From Centroscyllium fabricii (Eukaryota): a stretch of 64,000 nucleotides of DNA. The notes beneath the pieces were generated by a model that saw only the letters and a program-made list of their open reading frames with translations, did no database searches and was not told the DNA's origin. How positions within the stretch are numbered: the stretch's first letter is position 1; every line of letters begins with the position of its first letter. The stretch covers positions 44,082,001 through 44,146,000 of the forward strand of contig JBNRSN020000028.1 of assembly GCA_051313645.2 (NCBI GenBank), given 5' to 3'. Position numbers and translations under genes: made by a program. This document shows, in pieces, positions 16,885 to 38,627 of the stretch.

Positions 16885-16888
16885 CTGA

Positions 16889-16892: not shown

Positions 16893-18738
16893 AAATCACA
16901 ATACTGACCTCACAGTTCGGACACAGGTCGCAATAACAAGAGTCGGCCGTTTGAACCCACGAGCCTTACTGCCATTCAATTCAATCTATGAACCAGTTCC
17001 GTTTGCAGCTCTTTGCTCCTGACCCTACGTTTGGTTAACAAACACTTATTAATCGCAAGATGGCAATTGGCACAGCTTTAACTGCTGTTTTGAGAAGTGT
17101 GTTACAAATACTTGCCACATTCACTTTCACTTCTCTCCTTAAGGTCTTGGATCTAATGTTGATTCGATGTCCCTTACTCCTTGACGGTTCAATCATCAGG
17201 AATAACTTCTCGCTATCGACAGTATCAGTTCCACATAATAGCGTGAACACTTCAATCAATTCACCACATAAGCTTGTACATTCCATGGAATATAAACCTA
17301 TTTTGTGTAATCTCCCATTGTAAATTGCCCCTTTGGAATCTATGTTAAATCTACGCTTCAATTTTTATGCCTCATACTACTTTCTTCAGGTCAAATGCCC
17401 AGAACTGTACACAGTACGGCAGGTGTGGTCTAATCCGAGCTTTGTTTAGCTGTGGCATAAATTGTCCCTCTAATAATGTAATCCTGCAGATAACGGTATC
17501 ACCTTTCAGTTTGCATCTGTGGATCATTTCTGTACCTGTCCATGACCACTTCATGATATATATCCATGGCCCTTAAGTCTGTTTCGATCTCAGCTCTTTC
17601 CATCTTAACAGTATAACGAGTGTATTCTAGACGCCCCTTTTAGATCCGAAATGAATGAAGGCAAAATTGTCAATATTTTTAAGAAATCTGTCAAATAATT
17701 GACCAAATCTTAAAATATGAATATCTGGTCAAATTTTTAACTTCCACCTAATCTGCTTTTAATGCCGCCTGTCATTTTTGTCATCGTTAAACTGGCATAT
17801 GTGCCACTCAGCCGTATCAAGTAATTCGGTAGTAAAATCGAAGAATATTTGAGGTCCCTAGCGAGATAAATCAGAGAAACCGCTTCTTCTATTCTGCCAA
17901 TTTGTCACAGATGGCATTCCCCTTTAAGGAATCCATTTTGGAATTCTAGGTTTTGTTTCTCTGTTTTGATTCATTGTATCTCAATTAACTGTTTCACATA
18001 CCTGTGTGTTCCTGGTTCTCAATACCTGCAGCTTATTGGCTAGCACTAAATAATCTGGTTTGCCTGTTTGGCTTATAAGCTGGGTGCTTTGACCAGGCAG
18101 GTGCCGGATCATTAGATTTTACTTACTACTCATTACTACGAACTACTGGAAGGAGTGGTTGCTGTCTGAGCTTCTGGAGAGGCAATGGGTTTGGGCGTTC
18201 CCCTGCCTTGTAGATGATGTATTCTCTTCTGGAATCTCGATTAGAGTAAGTCTTAGCTGTGGAGCGGACTTCGGAGAACTACGGTTGTCTACATTCTGGA
18301 CATTGCACTTTACCTCCTGAACTCAGGATTGGACTTTCCATTAGTTAAGTAAGGGCGTTCCCCTGCTAAGTGGATCATGGATTCTCGTTCTGTGAACTCC
18401 GTTGGGTTAAGTCCCCGCGGTGGAGCGGATTTTGAAGAGATCCTTGTTCTACTTCCTGGACATTGGTCGTGATCACCCGAACTGAGGTTTGGACGTTTCA
18501 GTAGGGTATGTGGGGAGTTTCCTTGTTTGTGAAGATGGATTCTCTCTCAGAAGACTCCGTTGGAGTGAGTTTCTGCTGTAGGGCGAACTCGGGAGTATTC
18601 CTAAATTCAACATCCTGGACATTGCTCGCACCCACCTGAACTCAGCGCTGGACATGTATTTCACAACACTATGATGCACTTGGCTGCGTACCATTCCATG
18701 CACCAAGGGAAGTCTTGTACCAGTTGGGAAGAGAACTT

Positions 18739-20357
18739 CATAGAATCATAGAAATTTTACAGTGCGGATAAGGGCCATTCGGCCCATCCAGTCCGCACCG
18801 GCCCAGAAAAACTCCTCACTGTACTAACCCCAATTGCCCGCACCTGGCCCATAACCCTGTATGTTATGGTCCTTCATGTGCTGGTCCAAGTATTTTTTAA
18901 ATGTTGTGATGGTTCCTGCCTCCACCACCCTCACAGGCAGGGAGTTCCAGACTTCCACCACCCTCTGGGTAAAGAAATTTCTCCTTACCTCCCCCCTAAA
19001 CCTCCCCCCCCTGATCTTGAATCTATGTCCCCTAGTACTTGACTCTCCCACTAGGGGAAACAATGCCCCTTTGTCTACCCTATCGTGTCCCCTCATGATC
19101 TTGTACACCTCAATCATGTCACCCCTCCACCTTCTCTTCTCCAAGGCAAACAACCCCAGCCTGTCCAGCCTTTCTTCGTAGCATAAGTCCCCCAGACCAG
19201 GTATCATCCTGGTAAACCTTCTCTGCACCCTTTCCAGGGCAACCACATCCTTCCTGAAGTGCGGTGACCAGAACTGCACACAGTACTCCAGCTGAGGTCT
19301 CACCAGTGTGTTATACAAGTTTAACATTACCTCCCTACTTTTGTATACTATGCCCTGGTTAATAAAGGCGAGAATTCCGTATGCCTTCTTAACCACCTTG
19401 TTAACGTGTCCAGCAACCTTCAGGGAGCTGTGCACCTGTACCACCAGGTCCCTCTGTTCCTCGGTCCTATTTAACGTTTTGTTGTTCATGGTATTTTCCC
19501 TTACCCCATTTGGTCTACCGAATTGAATGACCTCGCATTTCTCTGGGTTGAACTCCATTTGCCATTTTTCTGCCCAATTAACCATTATATCTATATCCTC
19601 CTGAAGCCCCTTACTATCCTCATCGTTGTTTACCACCCTTCCGATTTTCGTATCATCAGCGAATTTGCTGATCATACCCCCTACTCCCATATCCAAATCG
19701 TTGATGTATACTAGAAACAGTAAGGGTCCCAAAACCGATCCTTGGGGGACGCCACTGGTTACTGGTTTCCAGTCACAGAAGCAGCCCTCTACCATTACCC
19801 TTTGTCTCCTATCCCCCAGCCAATTTTCGATCCACTGTGCCAAGTTGCCCTGTATCCCGTGCGCTCTAACTTTTGTTATTAGTCTCCTATGTGGGACTTT
19901 ATCAAAAGCTTTGCTAAAGTCCATATACACTACGTCCACAGTACTCCTTTCATCCACCCTCTTTGTTACCTCCTCAAAGAATTCCAACAGATTGGTCAGG
20001 CACGACTTACCTTTGACGAAGCCATGCTGACTGTCTCTTATTAGACCTTGTTTGTCCAAATGCGAACTGATTTTGTCCCTCAGAATTTTTTCCATTACTT
20101 TCCCTACTACAGATGTAAGACTAATTGGCCTATCGTTACCCGGTTTGTCCCTACTACCCTTTTTAAACAGGGGTACTACATTAGCCGTTCTCCAGTCCTC
20201 AGGAACATCCCCTGAAGCGAGAGAGGTCCTGAAGATTTGAGACAGGGGGCCCGCAAGCTCCTCCCTGGCCTCGAACAGCAGCCTGGGGAACATTGCGTCC
20301 GGCCCTGGTGATTTGTCCACCTTTAAGCCTCCCAAGATTTCTAGAACTTCTTCCCTT
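18739..20357 (-). mobile_element. Young 5'-truncated CR1 LINE insertion
   Basis: (TTCTATGA)-type tail at 18739, flanked by GAGAACTT/GAAAACTT (probable TSD). Absent from the other five LTR copies. Confidence 0.93.
18824..20335 (-). CDS. CR1 ORF2 reverse transcriptase, uninterrupted 503-aa C-terminal part (5'-truncated, not a complete gene)
   Basis: KSPGPD, QHGFVKGKSCLTNL, YMDFSKAFDKVPH, GVPQGSVLGP, KFADDTK and RGHRFK in one open frame. Confidence 0.9.
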   Translation of the reverse strand: MGGLKVDKSPGPDAMFPRLLFEAREELAGPLSQIFRTSLASGDVPEDWRTANVVPLFKKGSRDKPGNDRPISLTSVVGKVMEKILRDKISSHLDKQGLIRDSQHGFVKGKSCLTNLLEFFEEVTKRVDERSTVDVVYMDFSKAFDKVPHRRLITKVRAHGIQGNLAQWIENWLGDRRQRVMVEGCFCDWKPVTSGVPQGSVLGPLLFLVYINDLDMGVGGMISKFADDTKIGRVVNNDEDSKGLQEDIDIMVNWAEKWQMEFNPEKCEVIQFGRPNGVRENTMNNKTLNRTEEQRDLVVQVHSSLKVAGHVNKVVKKAYGILAFINQGIVYKSREVMLNLYNTLVRPQLEYCVQFWSPHFRKDVVALERVQRRFTRMIPGLGDLCYEERLDRLGLFALEKRRWRGDMIEVYKIMRGHDRVDKGALFPLVGESSTRGHRFKIRGGRFRGEVRRNFFTQRVVEVWNSLPVRVVEAGTITTFKKYLDQHMKDHNIQGYGPGAGNWG

Positions 20358-22591
20358 GAAAACTTGTTTTCTGTTATGATGCGCTTGGTTGCGTATCATT
20401 CCACGCACTATGGAAAGTTTTGTACCAGTTCGGAAAAGAACTTGTTTTCTGTTTCTAACTTTGTATGCCATTATATTGTTTTAAACTTTTTGAATGTATG
20501 CATGTATGTTATTTCATTACTGTTTGGTATATAAAGGATTTAAGACCTAGACAGTTTTATCAGTGTCTTTGCATTTGGGCCCCACACCCCACCGTTACAG
20601 AATGATCCGGCCAACATGGGGGCCCAGCAGACACTGAAGCGTCTAGCGCTCCTCGGATTCTTTTATACCTGGAGGACGGTTGGTCCCTCCTCTCCACCCC
20701 TCCACCCACATTCTTTCGGTATTTCGGTACTTGGGACGTCAGCAGTCGTCCTTTGAGGGGGGGGGGGTTCTGTCACAGATGGCATTCCCCTTTAAGGAAT
20801 CCATTTTGGAATTCTAGGTTTTGTATCTCTGTTTTGATTCATTGTATCTCAATTAACTGTTTCACATACCTGTGTGTTCCTGGTTCTCAATACCTGCAGC
20901 TTATTGGCTAGCACTAAATAATCTGGTTTGCCTGTTTGGCTTATAAGCTGGGTGCTTTGACCAGGCAGGTGCCGGATCATTAGATTCTACTTACTACTCA
21001 TTACTACGAACTACTGGAAGGAGTGGTTGCTGTCTGAGCTTCTGGAGAGGCAATGGGTTTGGGCGTTCCCCTGCCTTGTAGATGATGTATTCTCTTCTGG
21101 AATCTCGATTAGAGTAAGTCTTAGCTGTGGAGCGGACTTCGGAGAACTACGGTTGTCTACATTCTGGACATTGCACTTTACCTCCTGAACTCAGGTTTGG
21201 ACTTTCCATTAGTTAAGTAAGGGCGTTCCCCTGCTAAGTGGATCATGGATTCTCGTTCTGTGAACTCCGTTGGGTTAAGTCCCCGCGGTGGAGCGGACTT
21301 TGAAGAGATCCTTGTTCTACTTCCAGGACATTGGTCGTGATCACCCGAACTGAGGTTTGGACGTTTCAGTAGGGTATGTGGGGAGTTTCCTTGTTTGTGA
21401 AGATGGATTCTCTCTCAGAAGACTCCGTTGGAGTGAGTTTCTGCTGTAGGGCGAACTCGGGAGTATTCCTAAATTCAACATCCTGGACATTGCTCGCACC
21501 CACCTGAACTCAGGGTTGGACATGTATTTCACAACACTATGATGCGCTTGGCTGCGTACCATTCCATGCACCAAGGGAAGTCTTGTACCAGTTCGGAAGA
21601 GAACTTGTTTTCTGTTATGATGCGCTTGGTTGCGTATCATTCCACGCACTATGGAAATTTTTGTACCAGTTCGGGAAAGAACTTGTTTTCTGTTTCTAAC
21701 TTTGTATGCCATTTAATATTGTTTTGTAACTTTTTGAATGTATGCATGTATGTTTTTTCATTACTGTTTGGTATATAAAGGATTTAAGACCTAGACAGTT
21801 TGATCAGTGTCTTTGCATTTGGGACCCACACCCCACCGTTACACAATTAAAGTTACTGATTATTATCCGTAAGCTTTGTCTCCTGTCGTGCAAAGGATTT
21901 CCTAACCAGGACAATAATTTGACTTCACTTCCACGAATTTCAACTTCAGTTAGATGTCACCTATGCGGGAGATTGTGAAATTTCATTTGCTCCATGTCTA
22001 CTAGCTAATAATGATTTGTGAACTGGGACTCATAATCCTCTTTGGTTCGGAACAGTGAATAGCTTCCAATTATTTAGAATATAATTCACTGTTTAAATTG
22101 TGTTTTAAATATGTGACTATAAAATTTAACTTTAACTTTAATGTATCTTAATATGTTCGAAAGTCGATGGGGCCGCACTTGCGCACAGTGAACTCGATTT
22201 GCCTTTGTTTTGCTGGCTTACTTCGTCTGTGTCTGTCTCTTTGGTTACCTACATTTCCCATTTGCCGTAATAACGGACCTTCAAACATATTGCGATCCTC
22301 AAACTACGATCTACAGCCTTCAAGTCAATCATAAATACGGTGAAAAATTGAAGATCACATTCAATTATCTGGGGGACGGCATTTCTCACATCTGACTCCG
22401 CTGCTAAGCAGCATGTCGTTTGTGGGAGGGAGGGTATTTCTGAAATGATGGCGGTTTCAGGCAATCAGTCTGCATTTGTGGAAGAAATGCGCTGTCGAAG
22501 CTGGACAATGGAAAATAAATTTGATGTTGCAGAAGGTGCAATGATGCACTGCAAACAAATAAAGGGCTTTTGTGAAATGTGATTAGCAAGA

Positions 22592-22664
22592 GCCTGGATA
22601 GCTCAGTCGGTAGAACATCAAACTTTTAATCTGAGGGCCCAGGGTTCAAGTCCCTGCTCGGGCG
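22592..22664 (+). pseudogene. tRNA-Lys(TTT) degenerate copy
   Basis: GCCTGGATAG...GGTAGAACATCAAACTTTTAATCTG...CCCTGCTCGGGCG has D-, anticodon- and acceptor-stem mismatches. Confidence 0.8.
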
Positions 22665-24475
22665 CTGCTTTTAAATCACAAAACTGATCTCACAATTCGC
22701 ACACTGATCACAATAAAAAGAGAAAGCCGTTTAAACCCACGAGCCTTACTGGCACTCGATTCAATCTGCGAACCAGTTCCGTTTGCAACCCTTTGCTCCT
22801 GACCCAACATTTGGTCAACAAACACTGATTAATCTCAAGTTGACAATTGGCACAGCTTTAACTGCTGTTTTCAGAAGAGTGTTCAAATACTTGCCACATT
22901 CACTTTCACTTCTCTCCGGAAGGTCTTGGATCTCATTTCGATTTTATATCGCTTACTCCTTGACGGTTTAATCATCAGGAATAGCTGCTCGATTTCGACA
23001 GTATCATTTCCACATAATAGCGTGAATACTTCAATCAAATCACCACATAAGCTTGTACATTCCCTGGAATATAACCCTAGTTTGAGCAATTTCCCATTGG
23101 AAATTGTCCCTTTGTTTTGCTGGCTAACTTCGTCTGGGTCAATTTACAATGGGAGATTGCTCAAAATAGGGTTATACTCCATGGAATGTACAAGATTACG
23201 TGGTGATTTGATTGTATCATTCTGTTAAATCTACGCTTCACGGTTTATTCCTAATACTACATTCCTCAGGTCAAATACCCAGAACTGTACAGAGTACTGC
23301 AGGTGTGGTCTAATCCTGCTTTGTTTAGCTGTGGCATATATTCACCCTCTAATAATATAATGCTGCAGATAACGGTATCACCTTTCAGTTAGCATTAGTG
23401 AATCATTTCTGTACCTGTCCATGACCATTTAATGATATATGTACATGGCCCTTAAGTCTATTTGGATCTCAGCTCTTTCCAGTTTAACAGTATAACGACT
23501 GTATTCTAGTCGCCCCTTTTCGATCCGAAATGGATGATGTCACACTTGCCAATATCTAAATACATTTGTCAGAGAATTGCCCGAATCTTAATCTATCATT
23601 ATCTGGTCACATTTTTAAATTTCACCTAATCTGGTTTTAATGCCGCCTTGCCTTTTTTGTCATCGTCAAACTGGCATGTGTGCAGCTCAGCCGTATCAGG
23701 TAATTCGGTTGTAAATTCGAGGAATATTTGAGGTCCCTAGCGAGATAACTCAGATATACCGCTTCTTATATCCTGCCAATTAATGTTTCTGATCATTATC
23801 CGTAAGATTTGTCTCCTGTCGTGCAAACAATTTCCTAACCAGGACAATAATTTGACATCACTTCCACGAGCTTCCACTTCAGTAAGATGTCACTTCTGCG
23901 GGACATTATGAAATTTCATTTGCTTCATGTCTACTCGCTAATAATCATTTGTGAGCTGGGGTTCATAATCCTCTTTGGTTCCCAACAGTGATTAGCTTCC
24001 AATTATTTAGAAATTATTCCAAACTATCTAATTTGTTCCAAAGTGGATGGAACCAAACTTGCGCACAGTGAACTCGATTTCCCTTGGTTTTGCTGGCTTA
24101 CTCCGTCTGTCTCTGTCTCTTTGGTTGCCACCATTTCCCAATTGCACCAATAACGGACCTTCAAACTTATTGCGTTCTTCAAACTACGATCTACAGAGTT
24201 CAGCTGCTCCATCCAAGTCAATCATACATACGGAGAAAAATTGAAGATCATGTTCAATTATCTGGGGGACGGCATTTGTCACAGCTGACTCCGCTGCTAA
24301 GCAACATTTCCTTTATGGGAGGGAGAATTTTTCTGAAGTGATGGCGGTTTCAGGCAGCCAGTCTGCATTTGTGGAAGAAAGGCGCTGTCGAGGCTGGATT
24401 ATGGACAATAAATTTGATGTTGCAATGACGCACTGCAACCAGTAAAAGGGCTTTGGCGAACTTTGTTGAGCATTT

Positions 24476-24548
24476 GCCCGGATAGCTCAGTCGGTAGAAC
24501 ATCAGACTTTTAATCTGAGGGTCCAGGGTTCAAGACTCTGTTCGGGCG
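24476..24548 (+). tRNA. tRNA-Lys(TTT) variant, same allele as 15601
   Basis: Same sequence and flanks as the 15601 copy. Confidence 0.8.
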
Positions 24549-24774
24549 CTGCTTTTAAATCACAATACTGATCTCACAATTCGTACACTGATCACAATAA
24601 AAAGCGAAGGCCGTTAAAAACCACGAGCCTCACTGCCAATCGCTTCAATCTGTGAACCAGTTCCGATTGCAGCCCTTTGCTCCTGACCTTCGATTTGGTC
24701 AACAAACACTTATTAATCTCAAGTTGCCAATTGGCACAGCTTTAAGTGCTGCTTTGATAAGTGTGTTTCAAATA

Positions 24775-25027
24775 CATAGAATCATAGAAAAATAGAAGAT
24801 AGGAGCAGGAGTAGGCCAGTCGACCCTTCGAGTCTGCTCCGCCATTCAATGAGATCATGGCTGATCATCCAAACCCAGTACCATATCGTTGCCATATCCC
24901 CTGATCCCTATCGAACCTGCATCAACACATATCCCACCCTGTCCTCGTAACCCCACATATTCAATCCCCCTAACATTAAGGGTCAATTTATTATGGCAAA
25001 TCAACCTAACGCGCACATCTTTGGACT
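24775..25027 (-). mobile_element. 5'-truncated HE1-type SINE (duplicate of 15900)
   Basis: Same insertion point and sequence as 15900-16152. Confidence 0.85.
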
Positions 25028-25686
25028 TGCCACATTAAATTCCACTTCTCTGCTGTAGTGTTTGGATCTAATGTTGATTCGATATCCCTTACACCTTTTG
25101 CGGGGCTTTATGAAATGTAATTTGCTCCATGTCTACTAGTTAATAATTATTTGTGAACTGGGACTCATAACCTTCTTTGGGTCTCTACAGTGTATAGCTT
25201 CCAATTATTCTGAAAACAATCCAAACTATCTTAATTTGTTCCAAAGTGGATGGAGCCACACTTGCGCACAGTGAACTTGATTTGCCTTTGTTCTGCTGGC
25301 TTACTTCGTCTGTCTCTGTCGCTTTGGTTACCATCATATCCCATTTGCACCAATAACGGACCGTCAGACTTATTGCGATCTTCAAACTCTGATCTACCGA
25401 GTTCTATTGCTCCATCAAAATCAATCATAAATACGGTGAAAAATAAAAGATCAAGTTAAATTATCTGGGGGACGGCATTTCTCACATCGGACTCCGCTGC
25501 TAAACAGCATGACATTTGTGGGAGAGAGAATATTTCTGAAGTGATGGCGGTTCAAGTAGTCAATCTGCAATTGTGGAAGAAATGCGCTGTAGAGGCTGGA
25601 TTATGGACAGGAAATGTGAAATTGCAGAACGTGCAATGAGGCACTGCAAGCAATAAAAGGGCTTTTGTGAACCTGGTTTAGCAAGG

Positions 25687-25772
25687 GCCCGGATAGCTCA
25701 GTTGGTAGAGCATCAGACTTTTAATCTGAGGGTCCAGGGTTCGGGTCCAGGGTTCAAGTCCCTGTTCGGGCG
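25687..25772 (+). tRNA. tRNA-Lys(TTT) with a 13-nt internal tandem duplication (86 nt)
   Basis: ...TCTGA GGGTCCAGGGTTC GGGTCCAGGGTTC AAGTCCCTGTTCGGGCG. Confidence 0.85.
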
Positions 25773-26790
25773 CTGATTTTAAATCACAATACTGACCTCA
25801 CAGTTCGGACACAGGTCGCAATAACAAGAGTCGGCCGTTTGAACCCACGAGCCTTACTGCCACTCAATTCAATCTATGAACCAGTTCCGTTTGCAGCTAT
25901 TTGCTCCTGACCCTACGTTTGGTTAACAAACACTTATTAATCGCAAGATGGCAATTGGCACAGCTTTAACTGCTGTTTTGAGAAGTGTGTTACAAATACT
26001 TGCCACATTCACTTTCACTTCTCTCCTGAAGGTCTTGGATCTAATGTTGATTCGATGTCCCTTACTCCTTGACGGTTCAATCATCAGGAATACCTTCTCG
26101 CTATCGACAGTATCAGTTCCACATTATAGCGTGAACACTTCAATCAATTCACCACATAAGCTTGTACATTCCATGGAATATAAACCTATTTTGTGCAATC
26201 TCCCATTGTAAATTGCCCCTTTGGAATCTATGTTAAATCTACGCTTCAATTTTTATGCCTCATACTACTTTCTTCAGGTCAAATGCCCAGAACTGTACAC
26301 AGTACGGCAGGTGTGGTCTAATCCGAGCTTTGTTTAGCTGTGGCATAAATTGTCCCTCTAATAATGTAATCCTGCAGATAACGGTATCACCTTTCAGTTT
26401 GCATCTGTGGATCATTTCTGTACCTGTCCATGACCACTTCATGATATATGTCCATGGCCCTTAAGTCTGTTTCGATCTCAGCTCTTTCCATCTTAACAGT
26501 ATAACGAGTGTATTCTAGACGCCCCTTTTAGGTCCGAAATGGATGAAGGCAAAATTGTCAATATTTTTAAGAAATCTGTCAAATAATTGACCAAATCTTA
26601 AAATATGAATATCTGGTCAAATTTTTAACTTCCACCTAATCTGCTTTTAATGCCGCCTGTCATTTTTGTCATCGTCAAACTGGCATATGTGCCACTCAGC
26701 CGTATCAAGTAATTCGGTAGTAAAATCGAGGAATATTTGAGGTCCCTAGCGAGATAACTCAGAGAAACCGCTTCTTCTATTCTGCCAATT

Positions 26791-29106
26791 TGTCACAGAT
26801 GGCATTCCCCTTTAAGGAATCCATTTTGGAATTCTAGGTTTTGTTTCTCTGTTTTGATTCATTGTATCTCAATTAACTGTTTCACATACCTGTGTGTTCC
26901 TGGTTCTCAATACCTGCAGCTTATTGGCTAGCACTAAATAATCTGGTTTGCCTGTTTGGCTTATAAGCTGGGTGCTTTGACCAGGCAGGTGCCGGATCAT
27001 TAGATTCTACTTACTACTCATTACTACGAAATACTGGAAGGAGTGGTTGCTGTCTGAGCTTCTGGAGAGGCAATGGGTTTGGGCGTTCCCCTGCCTTGTA
27101 GATGATGTATTCTCTTCTGGAATCTCGATTAGAGTAAGTCTTAGCTGTGGAGCGGACTTCGGAGAACTACGGTTGTCTACATTCTGGACATTGCACTTTA
27201 CCTCCGGAACTCAGGATTGTACTTTCCATTAGTTAAGTAAGGGCGTTCCTCTGCTAAGTGGATCATAGATTCTCGTTCTGTGAACTCCGTTGAGTTAAGT
27301 CCCCGCGGTGGAGCGGACTTTGAAGAGATCCTTGTTCTACTTCCTGGACATTGGTCGTGATCACCCGAACTGAGGTTTGGACGTTTCAGTAGGGTATGTG
27401 GGGAGTTTCCTTGTTTGTGAAGATGGATTCTCTCTCAGAAGACTCCGTTGGAGTGAGTTTCTGCTGTAGGGCGAACTCGGGAGTATTCCTAAATTCAACA
27501 TCCTGGACATTGCTCGCACCCTCCTGAACTCAGGGTTGGACATGTATTTCACAACACTATGATGCGCTTGGCTGCGTACCATTCCATGCACCAAGGGAAG
27601 TCTTGTACCAGTTCGGAAGAGAACTTGTTTTCTGTTATGATGCGCTTGGTTGCGTATCATTCCACGCACTATGGAAAGTTTTGTACCAGTTCGGAAAAGA
27701 ACTTGTTTTCTGTTTCTAACTTTGTATGCCATTTAATATTGTTTTATAACTTTTTGAATGTATGCATGTATGTTTTTTCATTACTGTTTCGTATATAAAG
27801 GATTTAAGACCTAGACAGTTTTATCAGTGTCTTTGCATTTGGGCCCCACACCCCACCGTTACAGAATGATCCGGCCAACATGGGGGCCCAGCAGACACTG
27901 AAGCGTCTAGCGCTCCTCGGATTCTTTTATACCTGGAGGACGGTTGGTCCCTCCTCCCCACCCCTCCACCCACCTTCTTTCGGTATTTCGGTACTTGGGA
28001 CGTCAGCAGTCGTCCTTTGAGGGGGGGGGGTTCTGTCACAGATGGAATTCCCCTTTAAGGAATCCATTTTGGAATTTTAGGTTTTGTATCTCTGTTTTGA
28101 TTCATTGTATCTCAATTAACTGTTTCACATACCTGTGTGTTCCTGGTTCTCAATACCTGCAGCTTATTGGCTAGCACTAAATAATCTGGTTTGCCTGTTT
28201 GGCTTATAAGCTGGGTGCTTTGACCAGGCAGGTGCCGGATCATTAGATTCTACTTACTACTCATTACTACGAACTACTGGAAGGAGTGGTTGCTGTCTGA
28301 GCTTCTGGAGAGGCAATGGGTTTGGGCGTTCCCCTGCCTTGTAGATGATGTATTTTCTTCTGGAATCTCGATTAGAGTAAGTCTTAGCTGTGGAGCAGAC
28401 TTCGGAGAACTACGGTTGTCTACATTCTGGACATTGCTCTTTACCTCCTGAACTCAGGTTTGGACTTTCCATTAGTTAAGTAAGGGCGTTCCCCTGCTAA
28501 GTGGATCATGAATTCTCGTTCTGTGAACTCCGTTGGGTTAAGTCCCCGCGGTGGAGCGGACTTTGAAGAGATCCTTGTTCTACTTCCAGGACATTGGTCG
28601 TGATCACCCGAACTGAGGTTTGGACGTTTCAGTAGGGTATGTGGGGAGTTTCCTTGTTTGTGAAGATGGATTCTCTCTCAGAAGACTCCGTTGGAGTGAG
28701 TTTCTGCTGTAGGGCGAACTCGGGAATATTCCTAAATTCAACATCCTGGACATTGCTCGCACCCACCTGAACTCAGGGTTGGACATGTATTTCACAACAC
28801 TATGATGCGCTTGGCTGCGTACCATTCCATGCACCAAGGGAAGTCTTGTACCAGTTCGGAAGAGAACTTGTTTTCTGTTATGATGCGCTTGGTTGCGTAT
28901 CATTCCACGCACTATGGACATTTTTGTACCAGTTCGGGAAAGAACTTGTTTTCTGTTTCTAACTTTGTATGCCATTTAATATTGTTTTGTAACTTTTTGA
29001 ATGTATGCATGTATGTTTTTTCATTACTGTTTGGTATATAAATGATTTAAGACCTAGACAGTTTGATCAGTGTCTTTGCATTTGGGACCCACACCCCACC
29101 GTTACA
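26791..29106 (+). mobile_element. Non-autonomous two-LTR element (Tf1/sushi-like), copy 2, structurally complete
   Basis: LTRs at 26791-27863 and 28034-29106 (1073 bp each), 170-bp interior, TSD CAATT. Confidence 0.92.
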
Positions 29107-29854
29107 CAATTAAAGTTACTGATTATTATCCGTAAGCTTTGTCTCCTGTTGTGCAAAGGATTTCCTAACCAGGACAATAATTTGACTTCACTTCCACGAA
29201 TTTCAACTTCAGTTAGATGTCACCTATGCGGGAGATTGTGAAATTTCATTTGCTCCATGTCTACTAGCTAATAATGATTTGTGAACTGGGACTCATAATC
29301 CTCTTTGGTTCGGAACAGTGAATAGCTTCCAATTATTTAGAATATAATTCACTGTTTAAATTGTGTTTTAAATATGTGACAATAAAATTTAACTTTAACT
29401 TTAAAGTATCTTAATATGTTCGAAAGTCGATGGGGCCGCACTTGCGCACAGTGAACTCGATTTGCCTTTGTTTTGCCTGCTTACTTCGTCTGTGTCTGTC
29501 TCTTTGGTTACCTACATTTCCCATTTGCCGTAATAACGGACCTTCAAACGTATTGCGATCCTCAAACTACGATCTACAGCCTTCAAGTCAATCATAAATA
29601 CGGTGAAAAATTGAAGATCACATTCAATTATCTGGGGGACGGCATTTCTCACATCTGACTCCGCTGCTAAGCAGCATGTCGTTTGTGGGAGGGAGGGTAT
29701 TTCTGAAATGATGGCGGTTTCAGGCAATCAGTCTGCATTTGTGGAAGAAATGCGCTGTCGAAGCTGGACAATGGAAAATAAATTTGATGTTGCAGAAGGT
29801 GCAATGATGCACTGCAAACAAATAAAGGGCTTTTGTGAAATGTGATTAGCAAGA

Positions 29855-29927
29855 GCCCGGATAGCTCAGTCGGTAGAACATCAAACTTTTAATCTGAGGG
29901 CCTAGGGTTCAGGTCCCTGCTCGGGCG
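29855..29927 (+). pseudogene. tRNA-Lys(TTT) degenerate copy
   Basis: Same lineage as 22592, with extra T-arm changes (CCTAGGGTTCAGGTCCCTG). Confidence 0.8.
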
Positions 29928-31738
29928 CTGCTTTTAAATCACAAAACTGATCTCACAATTCGCACACTGATCACAATAAAAAGAGAAAGCCGTTTAAACC
30001 CACGAGCCTTACTGGCACTCGATTCAATCTGCGAACCAGTTCCGTTTGCAACCCTTTGCTCCTGACCCAACATTTGGTCAACAAACACTGATTAATCTCA
30101 AGTTGACAATTGGCACAGCTTTAACTGCTGTTTTCAGAAGAGTGTTCAAATACTTGCCACATTCACTTTCACTTTTCTCCGGAAGGTCTTGGATCTCATT
30201 TCGATTTTATATCGCTTACTCCTTGACGGTTTAATCATCAGGAATAGCTGCTCGATTTCGACAGTATCATTTCCACATAATAGCGTGAATACTTCAATCA
30301 AATCACCACATAAGCTTGTACATTCCCTGGAATATAACCCTAGTTTGAGCAATTTCCCATTGGAAATTGTCCCTTTGTTTTGCTGGCTAACTTCGTCTGG
30401 GTCAATTTACAATGGGAGATTACACAAAATAGGATTATACTCCATGGAATGTACAAGATTACGTGGTGATTTGATTGTATCATTCTGTTAAATCTACGCT
30501 TCACGGTTTATTCCTAATACTACATTCCTCAGGTCAAATTCCCAGAACTGTACAGAGTACTGCAGGTGTGGTCTAATCCTGCTTTGTTTAGCTGTGGCAT
30601 ATATTCACCCTCTAATAATATAATGCTGCAGATAACGGTATCACCTTTCAGTTAGCATTAGTGAATCATTTCTGTACCTGTCCATGACCATTTAATGATA
30701 TATGTACATGGCCCTTAAGTCTATTTGGATCTCAGCTCTTTCCAGTTTAACAGTATAACGACTGTATTCTAGTCGCCCCTTTTCGATCCGAAATGGATGA
30801 TGTCACACTTGCCAATATCTAAATACATTTGTCAGAGAATTGCCCGAATCTTAACCTATCATTATCTGGTCACATTTTTAAATTTCAACTAATCTGGTTT
30901 TAATGCCGCCTTGCCTTTTTTGTCATCGTCAAACTGGCATGTGTGCAGCTCAGCCGTATCAGGTAATTCGGTTTTAAATTCGAGGAATATTTGAGGTCCC
31001 TAGCGAGATAACTCAGATATACCGCTTCTTATATCCTGCCAATTAATGTTTCTGATCATTATCCGTAAGATTTGTCTCCTGTCGTGCAAACAATTTCCTA
31101 ACCAGGACAATAATTTGACATCACTTCCACGAGCTTCCACTTCAGTAAGATGTCACTTCTGCGGGACATTATGAAATTTAATTTGCTTCATGTCTACTCG
31201 CTAATAATCATTTGTGAGCTGGGGTTCATAATCCTCTTTGGTTCCCAACAGTGATTAGCTTCCAATTATTTAGAAATTAATCCAAACTATCTAATATGTT
31301 CCAAAGTGGATGGAACCAAACTTGCGCACAGTGAACTCGATTTCCCTTGGTTTTGCTGGCTTACTCCGTCTGTCTCTGTCTCTTTGGTTACCACCATTTC
31401 CCAATTGCACCAATAACGGAACTTCAAACTTATTGCGTTCTTCAAACTACGATCTACAGAGTTCTGCTGCTCCATCCAAGTCAATCATACATACGGTGAA
31501 AAATTGAAGATCATGTTCAATTATCTGGGGGACGGCATTTGTCACAGCTGACTCCGCTGCTAAGCAACATTTCCTTTATGGGAGGGAGAATTTTTCTGAA
31601 GTGATGGCGGTTTCAGGCAGCCAGTCTGCATTTGTGGAAGAAAGGCGCTGTCGAGGCTGGATTATGGACAATAAATTTGATGTTGCAATGACGCACTGCA
31701 ACCAGTAAAAGGGCTTTGGTGAACTTTGTTGAGCATTT

Positions 31739-31811
31739 GCCCGGATAGCTCAGTCGGTAGAACATCAGACTTTTAATCTGAGGGTCCAGGGTTCAAGACT
31801 CTGTTCGGGCG
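31739..31811 (+). tRNA. tRNA-Lys(TTT) variant, same allele as 15601
   Basis: Same sequence and flanks as the 15601 copy. Confidence 0.8.
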
Positions 31812-32037
31812 CTGCTTTTAAATCACAATACTGATCTCACAATTCGTACACTGATCACAATAAAAAGCGAAGGCCGTTAAAAACCACGAGCCTCACTGCC
31901 AATCGCTTCAATCTGTGAACCAGTTCCGATTGCAGCCCTTTGCTCCTGACCTTCGATTTGGTCAACAAACACTTATTAATCTCAAGTTGCCAATTGGCAC
32001 AGCTTTAAGTGCTGCTTTGATAAGTGTGTTTCAAATA

Positions 32038-32290
32038 CATAGAATCATAGAAAAATAGAAGATAGGAGCAGGAGTAGGCCAGTCGACCCTTCGAGTCTGC
32101 TCCGCCATTCAATGAGATCATGGCTGATCACCCAAACCCAGTACCATATCGTTGCCATATCCCCTGATCCCTATCGAACCTGCATCAACACATATCCCAC
32201 CCTGTCCTCGTAACCCCACATATTCAATCCCCCTAACATTAAGGGTCAATTTATTATGGCAAATCAACCTAACGCGCACATCTTTGGACT
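32038..32290 (-). mobile_element. 5'-truncated HE1-type SINE (duplicate of 15900)
   Basis: Same insertion point and sequence as 15900-16152. Confidence 0.85.
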
Positions 32291-32949
32291 TGCCACATTA
32301 AATTCCACTTCTCTGCTGTAGTGTTTGGATCTAATGTTGATTCGATATCCCTTACACCTTTTGCGGGACTTTATGAAATGTAATTTGCTCCATGTCTACT
32401 AGTTAATAATTATTTGTGAACTGGGACTCATAACCTTCTTTGGGTCTCTACAGTGTATAGCTTCCAATTATTCTGAAAATAATCCAAACTATCTTAATTT
32501 GTTCCAAAGTGGATGGAGCCACACTTGCGCACAGTGAAATTGATTTGCCTTTGTTCTGCTGGCTTACATCGTCTGTCTCTGTCGCTTTGGTTACCATCAT
32601 ATCCCATTTGCACCAATAACGGACCGTCAATCTTATTGCGAACTTCACACTCTGATCTACCGAGTTCTATTGCTCCATCAAAATCAATCATAAATACGGT
32701 GAAAAATAAAAGATCAAGTTAAATTATCTGGGGGACGGCATTTCTCACATCGGACTCCGCCGCTAAACAGCATGACATTTGTGGGAGAGAGAATATTTCT
32801 GAAGTGATGGCGGTTCAAGTAGTCAATCTGCAATTGTGGAAGAAATGCGCTGTAGAGGCTGGATTATGGACAGGAAATGTGAAATTGCAGAACGTGCAAT
32901 GAGGCACTGCAAGCAATAAAAGGGCTTTTGTGAACCTAGTTTAGCAAGG

Positions 32950-33022
32950 GCCCGGATAGCTCAGTCGGTAGAGCATCAGACTTTTAATCTGAGGGTCCAG
33001 GGTTCAAGTCCCTGTTTGGGCG
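32950..33022 (+). tRNA. TRK-TTT: tRNA-Lys(TTT), near-intact (one G:U wobble in acceptor stem)
   Basis: Identical to 16812 except TTTGGGCG for TTCGGGCG; TTTT terminator present. Confidence 0.93.
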
Positions 33023-34040
33023 CTGATTTTAAATCACAATACTGACCTCACAGTTCGGACACAGGTCGCAATAACAAGAGTCGGCCGTTTGAACCCACGA
33101 GCCTTACTGCCATTCAATTCAATCTATGAACCAGTTCCGTTTGCAGCTCTTTGCTCCTGACCCTACGTTTGGTTAACAAACACTTATTAATCGCAAGATG
33201 GCAATTGGCACAGCTTTAACTGCTGTTTTGAGAAGTGTGTTACAAATACTTGCCACATTCACTTTCACTTCTCTCCTGAAGGTCTTGGATCTAATGTTGA
33301 TTCGATGTCCCTTACTCCTTGACGGTTCAATCATCAGGAATACCTTCTCGCTATCGACAGTATCAGTTCCACATTATAGCGTGAACACTTCAATCAATTC
33401 ACCACATAAGCTTATACATTCCATGGAATATAAACCTATTTTGTGTAATCTCCCATTGTAAATTGCCCCTTTGGAATCTATGTTAAATCTACGCTTCAAT
33501 TTTTATGCCTCATACTACTTTCTTCAGGTCAAATGCCCAGAACTGTACACAGTACGGCAGGTGTGGTCTAATCCGAGCTTTGTTTATCTGTGGCCTAAAT
33601 TGTCCCTCTAATAATGTAATCCTGCAGATAACGGTATCACCTTTCAGTTTGCATCTGCGGATCATTTCTGTACCTGTCCATGACCACTTCATGATATATG
33701 TCCATGGCCCTTAAGTCTGTTTCGATCTCAGCTCTTTCCATCTTAACAGTATAACGAGTGTATTCTAGACGCCCCTTTTAGATCCGAAATGGATGAAGGC
33801 AAAATTGTCAATATTTTTAAGAAATCTGTCAAATAATTGACCAAATCTTAAAATATGAATATCTGGTCAAATTTTTAACTTCCACCTAATCTGCTTTTAA
33901 TGCCGCCTGTCATTTTTGTCATCGTCAAACTGGCATATGTGCCACTCAGCCGTATCAAGTAATTCGGTAGTAAAATCGAGGAATATTTGAGGTCCCTAGC
34001 GAGATAACTCAGAGAAACCGCTTCTTCTATTCTGCCAATT

Positions 34041-36357
34041 TGTCACAGATGGCATTCCCCTTTAAGGAATCCATTTTGGAATTCTAGGTTTTGTTTCTCT
34101 GTTTTGATTCATTGTATCTCAATTAACTGTTTCACATACCTGTGTGTTCCTGGTTCTCAATACCTGCAGCTTATTGGCTAGCACTAAATAATCTGGTTTG
34201 CCTGTTTGGCTTATAAGCTGGGTGCTTTGACCAGGCAGGTGCCGGATCATTAGATTCTACTTACTACTCATTACTACGAACTACTGGAAGGAGTGGTTGC
34301 TGTCTGAGCTTCTGGAGAGGCAATGGGTTTGGGCGTTCCCCTGCCTTGTAGATGATGTATTCTCTTCTGGAATCTCGATTAGAGTAAGTCTTAGCTGTGG
34401 AGCGGACTTCGGAGAACTACGGTTGTCTACATTCTGGACATTGCACTTTACCTCCTGAACTCAGGTTTGGACTTTCCATTAGTTAAGTAAGGGCGTTCCC
34501 CTGCTAAGTGGATCATGGATTCTCGTTCTGTGAACTCCGTTGGGTTAAGTCCCCGCGGTGGAGCGGACTTTGAAGAGATCCTTGTTCTACTTCCAGGACA
34601 TTGGTCGTGATCACCCGAACTGAGGTTTGGACGTTTCAGTAGGGTATGTGGGGAGTTTCCTTGTTTGTGAAGATGGATTCTCTCTCAGAAGACTCCGTTG
34701 GAGTGAGTTTCTGCTGTAGGGCGAACTCGGGAGTATTCCTAAATTCAACATCTTGGACATTGCTCGCACCCACCTGAACTCAGGGTTGGACATGTATTTC
34801 ACAACACTATGATGCGCTTGGCTGCGTACCATTCCATGCACCAAGGGAAGTCTTGTACCAGTTCGGATGAGAACTTGTTTTCTGTTATGATGCGCTTGGT
34901 TGTGTATCATTCCACGCACTATGGAAAGTTTTATACCAGTTCGGAAAAGAACTTGTTTTCTGTTTCTAACTTTGTATGCCATTTAATATTGTTTTATAAC
35001 TTTTTGAATGTATGCATGTATGTTTTTTCATTACTGTTTGGTATATAAAGGATTTAAGACCTAGACAGTTTTATCAGTGTATTTGCATTTGGGCCCCACA
35101 CCCCGCCGTTACAGAATGATCCGGCCAACATGGGGGCCCAGCAGACACTGAAGCGTCTAGCGCTCCTCGGATTCTTTTATACCTGGAGGATGGTTGGTCC
35201 CTCCTCCCCACTCCTCCACCCACCTTCTTTCGGTATTTCGGTACTTGGGACGTCAGCAGTCGTCCCTTGAGGGGGGGGGGGTTCTGTCACATATAGCATT
35301 CCCCTTTAAGGAATCCATTTTGGAATTCTAGGTTTTGTTTCTCTGTTTTGATTCATTGTATCTCAATTAATTGTTTCGCATACCTGTGTGTTCCTGGTTC
35401 TCAATACCTGCAGCTTATTGGCTAGCACTAAATAATCTGGTTTGCCTGTTTGGCTTATAAGCTGGGTGCTTTGACCAGGCAGGTGCCGGATCATTAGATT
35501 CTACTTACTACTCATTACTACGAACTACTGGAAGGAGTGGTTGCTGTCTGAGCTTCTGGAGAGGCAATGGGTTTGGGCGTTCCCCTGCCTTGTAGATGAT
35601 GTATTCTCTTCTGGAATCTCGATTAGAGTAAGTCTTAGCTGTGGAGCGGACTTCGGAGAACTACGGTTGTCTACACTCTGGACATTGCACTTTACCTCCT
35701 GAACTCAGGTTTGGACTTTCCATTAGTTAAGTAAGGGCGTTCCCCTGCTAAGTGGATCATGGATTCTCGTTCTGTGAACTCCGTTGGGTTAAGTCCCCGC
35801 GGTGGAGCGGACTTTGAAGAGATCCTTGTTCTACTTCCAGGACATTGGTCATGATCACCCGAACTGAGGTTTGGACGTTTCAGTAGGGTATGTGGGGAGT
35901 TTCCTTGTTTGTGAAGATGGATTTTCTCTCAGAAGACTCCGTTGGAGTGAGTTTCTGCTGTAGGGCGAACTCGGGAGTATTCCTAAATTCAACATCCTGG
36001 ACATTGCTCGCACCCACCTGAACTCAGGGTTGGACATGTATTTCACAACACTATGATGCGCTTGGCTGCGTACCATTCCATGCACCAAGGGAAGTCTTGT
36101 ACCAGTTCGGAAGAGAACTTGTGTTCTGTTATGATGCGCTTGGTTGCGTATCATTCCACGCACTATGGAAAGTTTTATACCAGTTCGGAAAATAACTTGT
36201 TTTCTGTTTCTAACTTTGTATGCCATTTAATATTGTTTTATAACTTTTTGAATGTATGCATGTATGTTTTTTCATTACTGTTTGGTATATAAAGGATTTA
36301 AGACCTAGACAGTTTTATCAGTGTCTTTGCATTTGGGCCCCACACCCCACCGTTACA
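34041..36357 (+). mobile_element. Non-autonomous two-LTR element (Tf1/sushi-like), copy 3
   Basis: LTRs at 34041-35113 and 35285-36357; TSD CAATT. Confidence 0.92.
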
Positions 36358-37105
36358 CAATTAAAGTTACTGATTATTATCCGTAAGCTTTGTCTCCTGT
36401 CGTGCAAAGGATTTCCTAACCAGGACAATAATTTGACTTCACTTCCACGAATTTCAACTTCAGTTAGATGTCACCTATGCGGGAGATTGTGAAATTTCAT
36501 TTGCTCCATGTCTACTAGCTAATAATGATTTGTGAACTGGGACTCATAATCCTCTTTGGTTCGGAACAGTGAATAGCTTCCAATTATTTAGAATATAATT
36601 CACTGTTTAAATTGTGTTTTAAATATGTGACAATAAAATTTAACTTTAACTTTAATGTATCTTAATATGTTCGAAACTCGATGGGGCCGCACTTGCGCAC
36701 AGTGAACTCGATTTGCCTTTGTTTTGCTGGCTTACTTCGTCTGTGTCTGTCTCTTTGGTTACCTACATTTCCCATTTGCCGTAATAACGGACCTTCAAAC
36801 TTATTGCGATCCTCAAACTACGATCTACAGCCTTCAAGTCAATCATAAATACGGTGAAAAATTGAAGATCACATTCAATTATCTGGGTGACGGCATTTCT
36901 CACATCTGACTCCGCTGCTAAGCAGCATGTCGTTTGTGGGAGGGAGGGTATTTCTGAAATGATGGCGGTTTCAGGCAATCAGTCTGCATTTGTGGAATAA
37001 ATGCGCTGTCGAGGCTGGATTATGGACAAGAAATTTGAAGTTCCAGAAGGTGCAAGGATGCACTGCAACCAATGAAAGGGCTTTTGTGAACTATGTTTAG
37101 TAAGA

Positions 37106-37178
37106 GCCCGGTTAGCTCGGTTGGTAGATAATCAGACTTTTAATCTGAGGGTCCAGGATTCGTGTCCCTGTTCGAGAA
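37106..37178 (+). pseudogene. tRNA-Lys(TTT) pseudogene
   Basis: GCCCGGTTAGCTCGGTTGGTAGATAATCAGACTTTTAATCTGAGGGTCCAGGATTCGTGTCCCTGTTCGAGAA; A box, B box and acceptor stem are degraded. Confidence 0.85.
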
Positions 37179-38359
37179 ATCTTTTAAATCACAATACTGA
37201 TCTCACAATTACTACACTGATCACAATAAAAAGAGTAGGCCGTTTAAACCCACGGGCCTTACAACCATTCGGTTCAATCTGTGAATCAGTTCCGTTTGTA
37301 GCCCTTTGCTCCTGACCCCTTAATATATTTGGTTAACAAACACTTGTTAATCTCAAGTTGATAATTGGCACAGCTTTAACTGCTGTTTTCAGAAGTGTGT
37401 TACAAATACTTGCCACATTCACTTTCACTTCTCTCCTGAAGGACCTGGATCGATAGCGTGAATACTTCATTAGAATCACATTATAAGCTTCTACATTCCA
37501 TGGAATATAACCCTGGGTTGTGCAATTTCTCATTGTAAATGGTCCCTTTGGAATTGTAAGTTGAGTCATTCTGTAAAATCTACACTTCAATTTTAACGCC
37601 AAATACTACTTTCCTGAGGTCAAATGCCCAGAACTGTGCACAGTTCTGCAGGTGTGGTCTAATCCGAGCTTTGTTTAACTGTGGCGTAACTTCTCTCTCT
37701 AATATTGTAATCCTGCAGATAACCGTATCACCTTTCAGTTAGCATTTGTGAATCATTTCGGTACCTGTCCATGACCATTTCATGATATATGTACATGGCC
37801 CTTAAGTCTATTTGGATCTCAGCTCTTCCCAGCTTAACAGTATAACGACTGTATTCTAGACGCCCCTTTTAGATCCGAAATGGATGACGTCACACTTGCC
37901 AATATTTAAATCAATTTGTCAAAGAATTGCCCAAATCTTAATCTGTGAATATCTGGTCAAATTTTAAACTTCCACCTAATCTGCTTTTACTGCCGCCTGT
38001 CTGTTTCGTCATCGTCCATCTGGCATGTGTGGCACTCAGTCGTATCAAGTAATTCGGTAGTAAAATCGAGGAATATTTGAAGTCTCCTAAACAGGTCATT
38101 CAGAGACATCGCTTCTTATATTTTGCAAATTAAAGTTCCAGTTCATTATCCGTAATCTCTTTCTACTGTCCTGCAAACAATTTCCTAACCCGGAGAATAA
38201 TGTGACTTTACTTCCACGAGGTTCCACTTCAGTAAGATGTCACTTATGTGAGTCATTATGAAATGTCATTTGCTCAATGTCTACTTGCTAATAATCATTT
38301 GTGAGCTAGGGTTCATGATCCTCGTTGGTTCTCAACAGTAAATAGCTTGCAATTATTGC

Positions 38360-38580
38360 ACGGAGGATCTGCAACAAAGTACGTCACTGTCTGGCGTAAA
38401 AATAAAAAAATGGAAGGTGTCTCAACCATGGCTAACAAGGGAAATCAGGGATAGTATTAACGCCAAGGAAGTGGCATACAAATTGGCCAGAAGTAGCAGC
38501 AAACCCGGGGTCTGGGAGAAATTTAAAACTCAGCAGAGGAGGACGCAGGTTTTGATTAAAGCAGGGAAAATAGAATATGA
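38360..38580 (+). mobile_element. Short CR1 ORF2 fragment replacing part of the spacer
   Basis: QPWLTREIRDSINAKEVAYKLARSSSKPGVWEKFK, typical of the CR1 endonuclease-RT linker. Confidence 0.75.
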
Positions 38581-38627
38581 TGGCCTGCAACCAATAAAAG
38601 GGCTTTTATGAACATTGTTTAGCAACT

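What the first reader, a model, noticed from the sequence alone, without database searches (positions are those of the whole stretch)
26791..29106. Non-coding two-LTR element with an intact self-priming (tRNA-independent) signal
Seen: two 1073-bp LTRs, a 170-bp interior and a CAATT TSD. The PBS position holds AATGATCCGGC (27865-27875), which lacks the TGG of tRNA primers. It is the exact reverse complement of GCCGGATCATT (26991-27001), located 29 nt after the start of the LTR TATAA, where transcription should begin. The pairing is intact in all three copies (18103/20601, 34241/35115). The interior keeps only the PBS, an ATG stub and a G-run PPT. Established: Tf1/sushi-group elements self-prime by pairing the first ~11 nt of the transcript with the PBS. 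Inference: a TRIM-like non-autonomous self-priming family with unusually long LTRs, possibly uncatalogued.
Basis: partly seen in the sequence, partly recalled or inferred. Interest (0 to 1): 0.7.

Follow-up and report, generated by a model that had tools for sequence, protein, structure and literature searches.

The report
Self-priming gene-less LTR retrotransposon family
This is one copy of a young, gene-less jumping element present at about a thousand or more places in this genome, cut down step by step from a gene-carrying relative; its primer site pairs exactly with its own repeat, so it likely starts copying itself with the front end of its own RNA instead of a tRNA, a known trick in a new package.

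Summary
Observation confirmed: LTRs 26791-27863 and 28034-29106, 170-bp interior, CAATT TSD, PBS the exact complement of an 11-mer 29 nt after TATAA. Correction: the three window copies are one insertion duplicated with a tRNA-Lys gene array, so they are not independent. The genome supplies the evidence: 1,476 exact LTR-PBS junctions, 979 with the short interior at both strict ends, many different TSDs, LTR pairs mostly about 99% alike. The 11-mer and PBS change together within the family (45 of 45; 16 of 17) and give eight different perfect pairs across related families; the TATA spacing is 29 in 116 of 116. The interior is the end of a deletion series from a gag-pol chromodomain element (5,295, 1,973, 712, 368, 170 bp). 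The 'ATG stub' is not a conserved start; it is predicted to be the leader arm of a U5-leader stem, which may also hide the 5' LTR poly(A) signal. No RNA data. The scan noted similar self-priming non-coding elements on other DNA (fungi, a ray). A new variant of known biology.

The parts
26786..26790 (+). 5' target-site duplication CAATT
   Evidence: empty paralogous site with one CAATT at 44743-44747
26791..27863 (+). 5' LTR, 1073 bp, TGTCA...TTACA; predicted U3 about 200 bp, long R, short U5
   Evidence: U3/R border inferred from TATA and the 11-mer
26962..26966 (+). TATA-like box (TATAA)
   Evidence: column conservation 1.00 at most of its positions in 39 distinct non-coding contexts
26991..27001 (+). 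Predicted self-primer GCCGGATCATT (first 11 nt of the RNA if transcription starts here)
   Evidence: 29 nt after the TATA start in 116 of 116 loci where it was found; mean conservation 0.95 against 0.76 upstream and 0.54 downstream
27081..27541 (+). Three diverged ~160-bp tandem units in R (about 69% alike); one cause of the long LTR
   Evidence: self-match of LTR positions 291-751; the unit matches a single stretch of the 540-bp LTR of coding relatives at 60-70%
27558..27714 (+). Two ~78-bp tandem units (90% alike)
27791..27847 (+). U5 arm of the predicted U5-leader stem; includes the poly(A)-signal-like TATAAA at 27794-27799 (AATAAA in sister subfamilies)
27864..27875 (+). G spacer plus 11-nt PBS AATGATCCGGC, in the apical loop of the predicted stem
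   Evidence: same G+11-mer layout in coding families
27880..27932 (+). Gag-derived stub and deletion junction; predicted leader arm pairing with U5 (pair probabilities mostly above 0.9). The ATG at 27880 is not conserved in the family
27936..28018 (+). 3' untranslated remnant of the coding ancestor (84% identical to the last ~95 nt of the coding interiors)
28019..28030 (+). Polypurine tract GAG11, followed by TTC and the 3' LTR
   Evidence: same layout in coding relatives
28034..29106 (+). 3' LTR, 1073 bp; 11-mer copy at 28234
29107..29111 (+). 3' target-site duplication CAATT
17903..21843 (+). Duplicate of the same insertion; its 5' LTR is interrupted at about 18739-20357 by a minus-strand LINE fragment (RT domain; CR1-like by recalled motifs)
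34041..36357 (+). Third duplicate of the same insertion
8431..38701 (+). Host context: tandem array with 11 tRNA-Lys(UUU) gene calls and one Asn(AUU) call; the element lies about 1.0 kb downstream of one gene and 0.75 kb upstream of the next

Best explanation
This is one insertion of a young, high-copy, non-coding LTR retrotransposon family derived by serial internal deletion from a chromodomain-bearing gag-pol element of the same genome, and it likely primes its reverse transcription with the first 11 bases of its own RNA, as Tf1 does, using proteins that would be borrowed from coding relatives. Shown: dispersed copies with separate 5-bp TSDs; the deletion series; exact primer/PBS complementarity that changes on both sides together; fixed TATA spacing. 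Inferred: transcription starts at 26991; U5 (27791-27847) pairs with the leader (27883-27932) and holds the PBS in a loop; the 5' 11-mer pairs with the PBS across that stem (a pseudoknot); a helper's RNase H cuts after base 11; the PPT primes the plus strand; a helper integrase recognises the conserved ends and makes the 5-bp TSD. After insertion, this copy was multiplied passively with the tRNA-Lys gene array.
For: Family: 1,476 exact LTR-end/PBS junctions, 0 in the reversed-pattern control; 979 matches of PBS plus PPT/LTR start within about 170 bp; 8,735 promoters with TATA plus this 11-mer. Of 19 loci outside the tRNA array, 16 had two complete LTRs; 15 of these have their own 5-6-bp TSD and one is a tandem. 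Of 60 loci taken in genome order, 47 were scored as short-interior: 20 exact 5-bp TSDs, 13 tandem members, 10 with an LTR not delimited, 4 unscored (two are tandem ends, one a 6-bp TSD, one a TSD with one mismatch). Covariation (127 loci, 116 with a leader found): in non-coding copies PBS position 3 T goes with primer A in 45 of 45, and C goes with G in 16 of 17; in the other tiers PBS position 8 T goes with primer A in 27 of 27 and C with G in 24 of 27. Of 30 gag (DUF4939) loci, 19 show a perfect 11-nt pair in the same G+11-mer layout, in six different sequences; with the two family variants that makes eight. Ancestry: interiors of 5,295 (gag, PR, RT, RH, IN, SH3, chromodomain), 1,973, 712, 368 and 169-170 bp are nested deletions, one at a 7-nt microhomology; 7,092 junctions carry the related PBS plus gag start. 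Structure: U5-leader stem z -4.4 to -6.6 in four non-coding copies, 97.5% of cells paired in 62 distinct rows; across 16 sequences of several families the proximal helix has 5 pairs with changes on both sides. Literature: Tf1 mechanism (PMC7175516, passages), the three-duplex structure and the Tf1/sushi group (PMC10085805, passages).
Against: No transcript evidence: start site, cleavage and expression are untested. Loci were picked by exact PBS patterns, so PBS conservation itself was not measured, and related or tandem copies are not independent. 12 of 62 non-coding copies have a mismatch in the leader 11-mer. Most gag-type copies with the T variant of the PBS keep the G leader (a G-U pair), which fits CpG decay after insertion. 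The 24 inner stem pairs show 0 changes on both sides within the non-coding family. In one search the one-column slide scores almost as high on covariation (0.212 against 0.239), though only 42% of its cells pair against 89%. A third duplex of the Tf1 structure was not found above shuffles in 11 of 11 copies. The nested fold prefers a weak local 5' hairpin (-3.6 kcal/mol against -19.0 for primer-PBS) because it cannot show pseudoknots. No full-length element with exactly the family's PBS and a pol gene was found among the 25 extended loci; the pol-bearing relatives differ at one or two PBS positions, and the closest ones examined have stops or frame breaks in pol. The scan also gave two chance hits at wrong places.
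Confidence: 0.85

Rival explanations
1. The family is real but spread by DNA-level duplication and recombination; the self-priming signal is an inherited relic that the short element no longer uses.
For: The three window copies and a second block on the same contig are duplicates of one insertion; tandem LTR-interior-LTR arrays are common; some hits on C1 recur at about 49-kb spacing.
Against: 35 singly inserted copies with their own exact TSDs (15, 20), six tandem arrays with matching outer TSDs, LTR pairs about 99% alike while subfamilies differ by 5-15%, and a primer/PBS variant fixed on both sides within the non-coding family.
Confidence: 0.04
2. Priming is done in trans by a host RNA (an internal tRNA segment, a tRNA half or another small RNA), and the match to the LTR is secondary.
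For: Half-tRNA priming is known in Ty1/copia lineages (PMC6317226, passages). No complete tRNA set of this genome was compared with the PBS. From recall, not tested: part of the 11-mer resembles the 3' end of 18S rRNA.
Against: Eight different PBS sequences each match their own LTR at the same spacing from TATA; a host primer would not follow each family's changes. No Rfam match at E up to 1 in the element.
Confidence: 0.05
3. The element self-primes, but it is mobilised by a more distant self-priming family, or needs two helpers (the 3-kb Gag-protease-chromodomain tier for particles, a full-length element for RT and integrase), rather than by its direct ancestor alone.
For: Gag-type copies with the family's own PBS core were nearly all of the 1,970-bp tier without RT; LTR bodies are only 60-70% alike to coding LTRs; several other full-length families with intact single ORFs exist.
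Against: LTR ends, U5, gag stub and PPT region are closest to the 5.3-kb family with about 7,000 junctions. This rival concerns the helper, not the priming mode.
Confidence: 0.3

Closest known systems
Tf1/sushi group of Ty3/gypsy chromoviruses (Tf1, Tf2, Tj1, Tosmo1-3; vertebrate sushi-ichi and Amn elements)
   Same: No tRNA PBS; 11-nt PBS next to the 5' LTR complementary to the predicted RNA 5' end; U5-leader duplex; coding relatives with gag, PR, RT, RH, IN and chromodomain; ends fit the Sushi motifs TGTYANR...CNTNACA closely (PMC3601003, passages; here TGTCACA...CGTTACA).
   Different: No coding capacity; primer-to-PBS loop of about 870 nt against 160-430 nt in most coding families here; the third duplex was not found; the stem extends over the poly(A) signal.
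TRIMs (plants; bivalve biv-TRIM)
   Same: Non-coding, short interior reduced to PBS and PPT regions, 5-bp TSDs, tandem arrays and many solo-like LTRs.
   Different: Classical TRIMs are under 1 kb with 100-250-bp repeats and a tRNA-type PBS (PMC6934838, passages); this is 2.3 kb with about 1-kb LTRs and a self-complementary PBS. It fits the unnamed 1.5-4 kb class and the size-free use of 'TRIM' in PMC13570524 (passages), where all PBS types reported were tRNA-derived.
TR-GAG and other gag-retaining non-autonomous elements
   Same: The 3-kb sister tier keeps one ~623-aa ORF with gag and lacks RT/RH/IN core, with young LTRs and TSDs.
   Different: That tier also keeps protease and the chromodomain fused in frame; the window element keeps no ORF.
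LARDs
   Same: Long LTRs, non-coding, predicted structured interior.
   Different: LARDs are over 4 kb (PMC13570524, passages); the interior here is 170 bp.

Membership tests
Tf1/sushi self-priming group (as a non-autonomous derivative) | PBS next to the 5' LTR complementary to an LTR 11-mer, no tRNA-type TGG start | tested here: met
Tf1/sushi self-priming group (as a non-autonomous derivative) | The 11-mer is the 5' end of the transcript | not testable with these tools
   Only contig sets of unknown kind were listed; indirect support is the fixed 29-nt TATA spacing
Tf1/sushi self-priming group (as a non-autonomous derivative) | Duplex between the sequence 3' of the PBS and U5 | tested here: met
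   Predicted only:
Tf1/sushi self-priming group (as a non-autonomous derivative) | Third duplex between the sequence 5' of the PBS and the LTR | tested here: inconclusive
   No long-range partner better than shuffles in 11 of 11 copies, coding relatives included; the original papers defining it were not held
Tf1/sushi self-priming group (as a non-autonomous derivative) | Coding ancestor is a chromovirus (gag-PR-RT-RH-IN order, chromodomain) | tested here: met
   Pfam on L108: DUF4939, Ty3_capsid, zf-CCHC, RVT_1, RNase H, integrase, SH3_Tf2-1, Chromo; best solved-structure match Ty3 Gag-Pol; link to the element
Tf1/sushi self-priming group (as a non-autonomous derivative) | RT/IN phylogeny groups the ancestor with sushi-ichi/Tf1 | not tested
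   No reference sequences were fetched; no tree built
Tf1/sushi self-priming group (as a non-autonomous derivative) | RNase H cleavage after base 11 | not testable with these tools
   needs biochemistry
Classical TRIM | Under 1 kb (or 1.5 kb), repeats of 100-250 bp | tested here: not met
   2,316 bp; LTRs mostly 890-1100 bp
Classical TRIM | PBS complementary to a tRNA | tested here: not met
   PBS matches the LTR and covaries with it; a full tRNA comparison was not run
Non-autonomous non-coding LTR retrotransposon (broad sense) | Paired LTRs, PBS, PPT, no coding domains, dispersed copies with separate TSDs | tested here: met
LARD | Over 4 kb with a long non-coding interior | tested here: not met
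   170-bp interior

The most novel reading that the evidence does not exclude
A three-tier parasite system in a vertebrate genome in which shrinking created a new control: the deletion that joined the gag start to a stretch behind the protease placed a sequence complementary to the LTR's poly(A) signal in the leader, so the non-coding RNA hides the 5' LTR signal in the same stem that presents the self-priming site, while the 3' LTR signal stays free. Predicted unpaired probability of the signal is 0.00-0.35 with the interior against 0.51-0.64 without it in 5 of 5 non-coding copies, with no such drop in 4 of 4 gag-bearing copies or in the one 640-bp-tier copy; cognate U5/leader pairs are more stable than swapped ones (21 of 5000 permutations, related sequences).
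Probability: 0.3. Interest if true: 0.65.

Novelty: new variant of a known kind. Interest (0 to 1): 0.45.

Why it matters
It gives a natural minimal set of cis signals for tRNA-independent LTR retrotransposition in a vertebrate, where self-priming has been inferred from sequence rather than shown. The deletion series with surviving intermediates shows how a non-coding LTR element arises, which is usually obscure because the partner is lost. The short non-coding RNA is a convenient substrate for testing vertebrate self-priming. LTR annotation tools that require a tRNA PBS would miss this family of at least a thousand interiors and several thousand LTRs. It is not a new mechanism.

Tried and rejected
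RNA evidence: no RNA holder was listed; four contig sets of one study cover the whole LTR and cannot show a start. No verdict drawn. Rfam: 0 matches at E up to 1 in 26700-29200, so no 5S or tRNA-derived module as in Cassandra. 'Three intact copies' as support: rejected, one insertion. Translated ATG stub: rejected, ATG is replaced in several subfamilies and frames end after 16-60 codons. tRNA-gene targeting like Tj1 (within 12 bp; PMC4600332, passages): not supported, the site is 0.75-1.0 kb from the genes. The gypsy pol fragment at window 3196-4830 as partner: no chromodomain hit in the fragment and no LTR or interior match nearby; not pursued. First pattern for a partner gave only two non-coding variants. 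Third duplex: not found. One search's stricter regular expression found the pair in 22 of 30 gag loci (15 exact, 7 with one mismatch) and missed four that one search found; one search's count is used. PMC10468316 (passages): hits were read trimming, nothing on such elements. Levin 1995, Lin and Levin 1997 and 1998, Esnault and Levin 2015 were not held; Butler et al. 2001 was seen only as a citation.

Full report
Observation. The element is as described: 5' LTR 26791-27863, interior 27864-28033, 3' LTR 28034-29106, 97.7% LTR identity, CAATT on both sides. The PBS slot reads G then AATGATCCGGC; its exact complement occurs once in each LTR, 29 nt after the start of TATAA. The geometry is the right one for priming: the 3' end of the 11-mer would pair next to the LTR end and be extended into U5. 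Four of 5000 shuffled LTRs contain such a complement. An empty paralogous site with one CAATT lies at 44718-44747.

The three window copies are one event. They share flanks and TSD and lie in a tandem duplication of about 7.3-kb period. The array is a tRNA-Lys(UUU) gene cluster. Nine further hits at C800:43.62-43.68 Mb belong to a second block; the two of them whose ends were delimited carry the same TSD. One duplicate carries a LINE fragment in an LTR.

It is a dispersed young family. In the 7.2-Gb genome the interior gave 1,764 candidates, 40 scored. Exact patterns gave 1,476 LTR-end/PBS junctions, 512 for the C variant of the PBS, 979 for PBS plus PPT and LTR start within about 170 bp and 8,735 TATA-plus-11-mer promoters; reversed-pattern controls were 0. 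These are match counts and include duplicated and tandem copies. Of 19 loci outside the tRNA array, 16 had two complete LTRs, 15 with their own 5-6-bp TSD and one tandem; LTR identity was 91.9-99.6%. Of 60 loci in genome order, 47 were scored as short-interior: 20 with exact 5-bp TSDs, 13 tandem members, 10 not delimited and 4 unscored. Six tandem arrays have matching outer TSDs. Tandems sharing an LTR are known for Tf1/Tf2 (PMC11042837, passages) and plant TRIMs (PMC13570524, passages).

Primer and PBS change together. Among 127 loci, 116 had a leader 11-mer and all 116 lie 29 nt after the TATA start; the spacing was not imposed. In the 62 non-coding copies with a leader, PBS position 3 T goes with A in 45 of 45 and C goes with G in 16 of 17; 50 of 62 are perfect pairs. 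The 11-mer is more conserved (0.95) than the 20 nt before (0.76) and 15 nt after (0.54) in 39 distinct contexts. Independently, 19 of 30 loci found by the gag family DUF4939 show a perfect 11-nt pair in the same layout, in six different sequences. Limits: loci were chosen on exact PBS patterns, copies are related, and the variable positions are CpG sites. By recalled mechanism the primer is copied into the new PBS, so covariation may reflect templating as well as selection; either way it points to the LTR, not a tRNA, as the primer source.

Ancestry. A pattern for the related PBS plus gag start gave 7,092 junctions. Extended loci show a nested series: a 5,295-bp interior with gag, PR, RT, RNase H, integrase, SH3 and chromodomain (L108; LTRs 541 bp, 100% alike; pol interrupted); a 1,973-bp interior with one ~623-aa Gag-protease-chromodomain ORF and no RT (L117 and at least ten others); 712 bp, from a deletion joining position 57 to 1312 at a 7-nt microhomology (L189, L163); 368 bp (L137); and 169-170 bp. 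The window interior matches the first 66 nt of the 712-bp tier, junction included, and the last ~95 nt of all tiers at about 84%. The long LTR comes from tandem expansion in R: three ~160-bp and two ~78-bp units, the former 60-70% alike to one stretch of the 540-bp coding LTR. No pol-bearing element with exactly the family's PBS was found among the 25 loci extended, so the helper is not pinned down.

The 'ATG stub' is predicted to be structural. Folding the predicted RNA gives a stem of about 45 pairs between 27791-27847 and 27883-27932 with the PBS in the loop; the primer-PBS pairing crosses it, so the program cannot show both. This matches two of the three duplexes described for Tf1 (PMC10085805, passages); the third was not found. 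The stem scores z -4.4 to -6.6 in four non-coding copies, -3.2 in the 640-bp copy and from +1.8 to -3.0 in seven coding copies. Within the non-coding family the three inner helices are 97.5% paired but show no change on both sides; across families the proximal helix has five such pairs. The ATG itself is lost in several subfamilies. The outer helix covers the poly(A)-signal-like hexamer, using sequence brought in by the deletion junction; predicted accessibility drops with the interior in 5 of 5 non-coding copies and not in the coding ones, and cognate arms beat swapped arms weakly. This is prediction only.

Mechanism. Likely: transcription from the TATA box starts at 26991; the 5' 11 nt pair with the PBS; a helper RT/RNase H releases the 11-mer as primer, as shown for Tf1 (PMC7175516, passages); the G-run primes the plus strand; a helper integrase inserts the DNA with a 5-bp TSD. 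Shown are the sequence signals, their covariation, the ancestry and the products. Start site, cut and helper are inferred.

Comparison and novelty. It works like a Tf1/sushi element and descends from a chromovirus; the tree test was not run. It fails the classical TRIM definition on size and PBS type (PMC6934838, passages) but fits the broad class of non-coding non-autonomous LTR elements (PMC13570524). Ten literature searches (listings and the passages named) showed no description of a self-priming non-coding LTR family in a vertebrate; the bivalve TRIM paper mentions self-priming only as a comparison. Subscription papers, Butler et al. 2001, Repbase and Dfam were not seen, and no supplements were read, so absence from print is not established. 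The scan's own notes list 15 findings with these words in at least 7 genomes, mostly fungi, and one non-coding case in a ray; no look-alike sequence was noted. Earlier notes call this genome a shark or ray; I did not test that. Verdict: real, well supported, new variant of a known kind; interest 0.45.

Noticed in passing
window 8431-38701: Tandem array of tRNA-Lys(UUU) genes (11 calls plus one Asn-AUU call at 8431) in 1.2-1.9-kb units, with a higher-order unit of about 7.3 kb that carries the LTR element; a second block lies at G000:C800:43.62-43.68 Mb.
   Followed up: partly
L116, L117, L119, L120, L154, L156-L158, L160, L162 (for example G000:C667:97523407-97526458): Young 3-kb element with a single ~623-aa ORF: Gag, protease and chromodomain fused in frame, RT/RNase H/integrase core deleted; LTRs 98-99.8% alike where measured, with TSDs. 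The frame is open in most copies seen, which suggests selection on the protein.
   Followed up: partly
window 18739-20357 (minus strand): LINE fragment with a 523-aa RT frame inside an LTR; the same insertion sits in the middle LTR of three-LTR tandems in the second block (L007/L011, L004/L012).
   Followed up: partly
G000:C1:111.73-112.04 Mb, 226.5-227.1 Mb, 297.2-297.3 Mb: Copies of the element recur at about 45-50-kb spacing, suggesting large tandem or segmental repeats that carry it.
   Followed up: no
L040, L057, L058; L033 and relatives; L041, L043; L050: At least five other gag-bearing families in this genome have their own perfect primer/PBS pairs with loops of 160-790 nt.
   Followed up: partly
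window 3196-4830: Ty3/gypsy pol fragment (RT, RNase H, integrase) with no match to the element's LTR or interior nearby.
   Followed up: no
window 52860-58000: About 5 kb of GA-rich degenerate simple repeat with strong A/T skew.
   Followed up: no
window 60909-61078: 79-bp inverted repeat, 97% complementary, 12-nt spacer.
   Followed up: no
L173 (G000:C1:2196383-2199416): Another deletion type: gag stub joined to a piece of the RT region of the full-length family.
   Followed up: no
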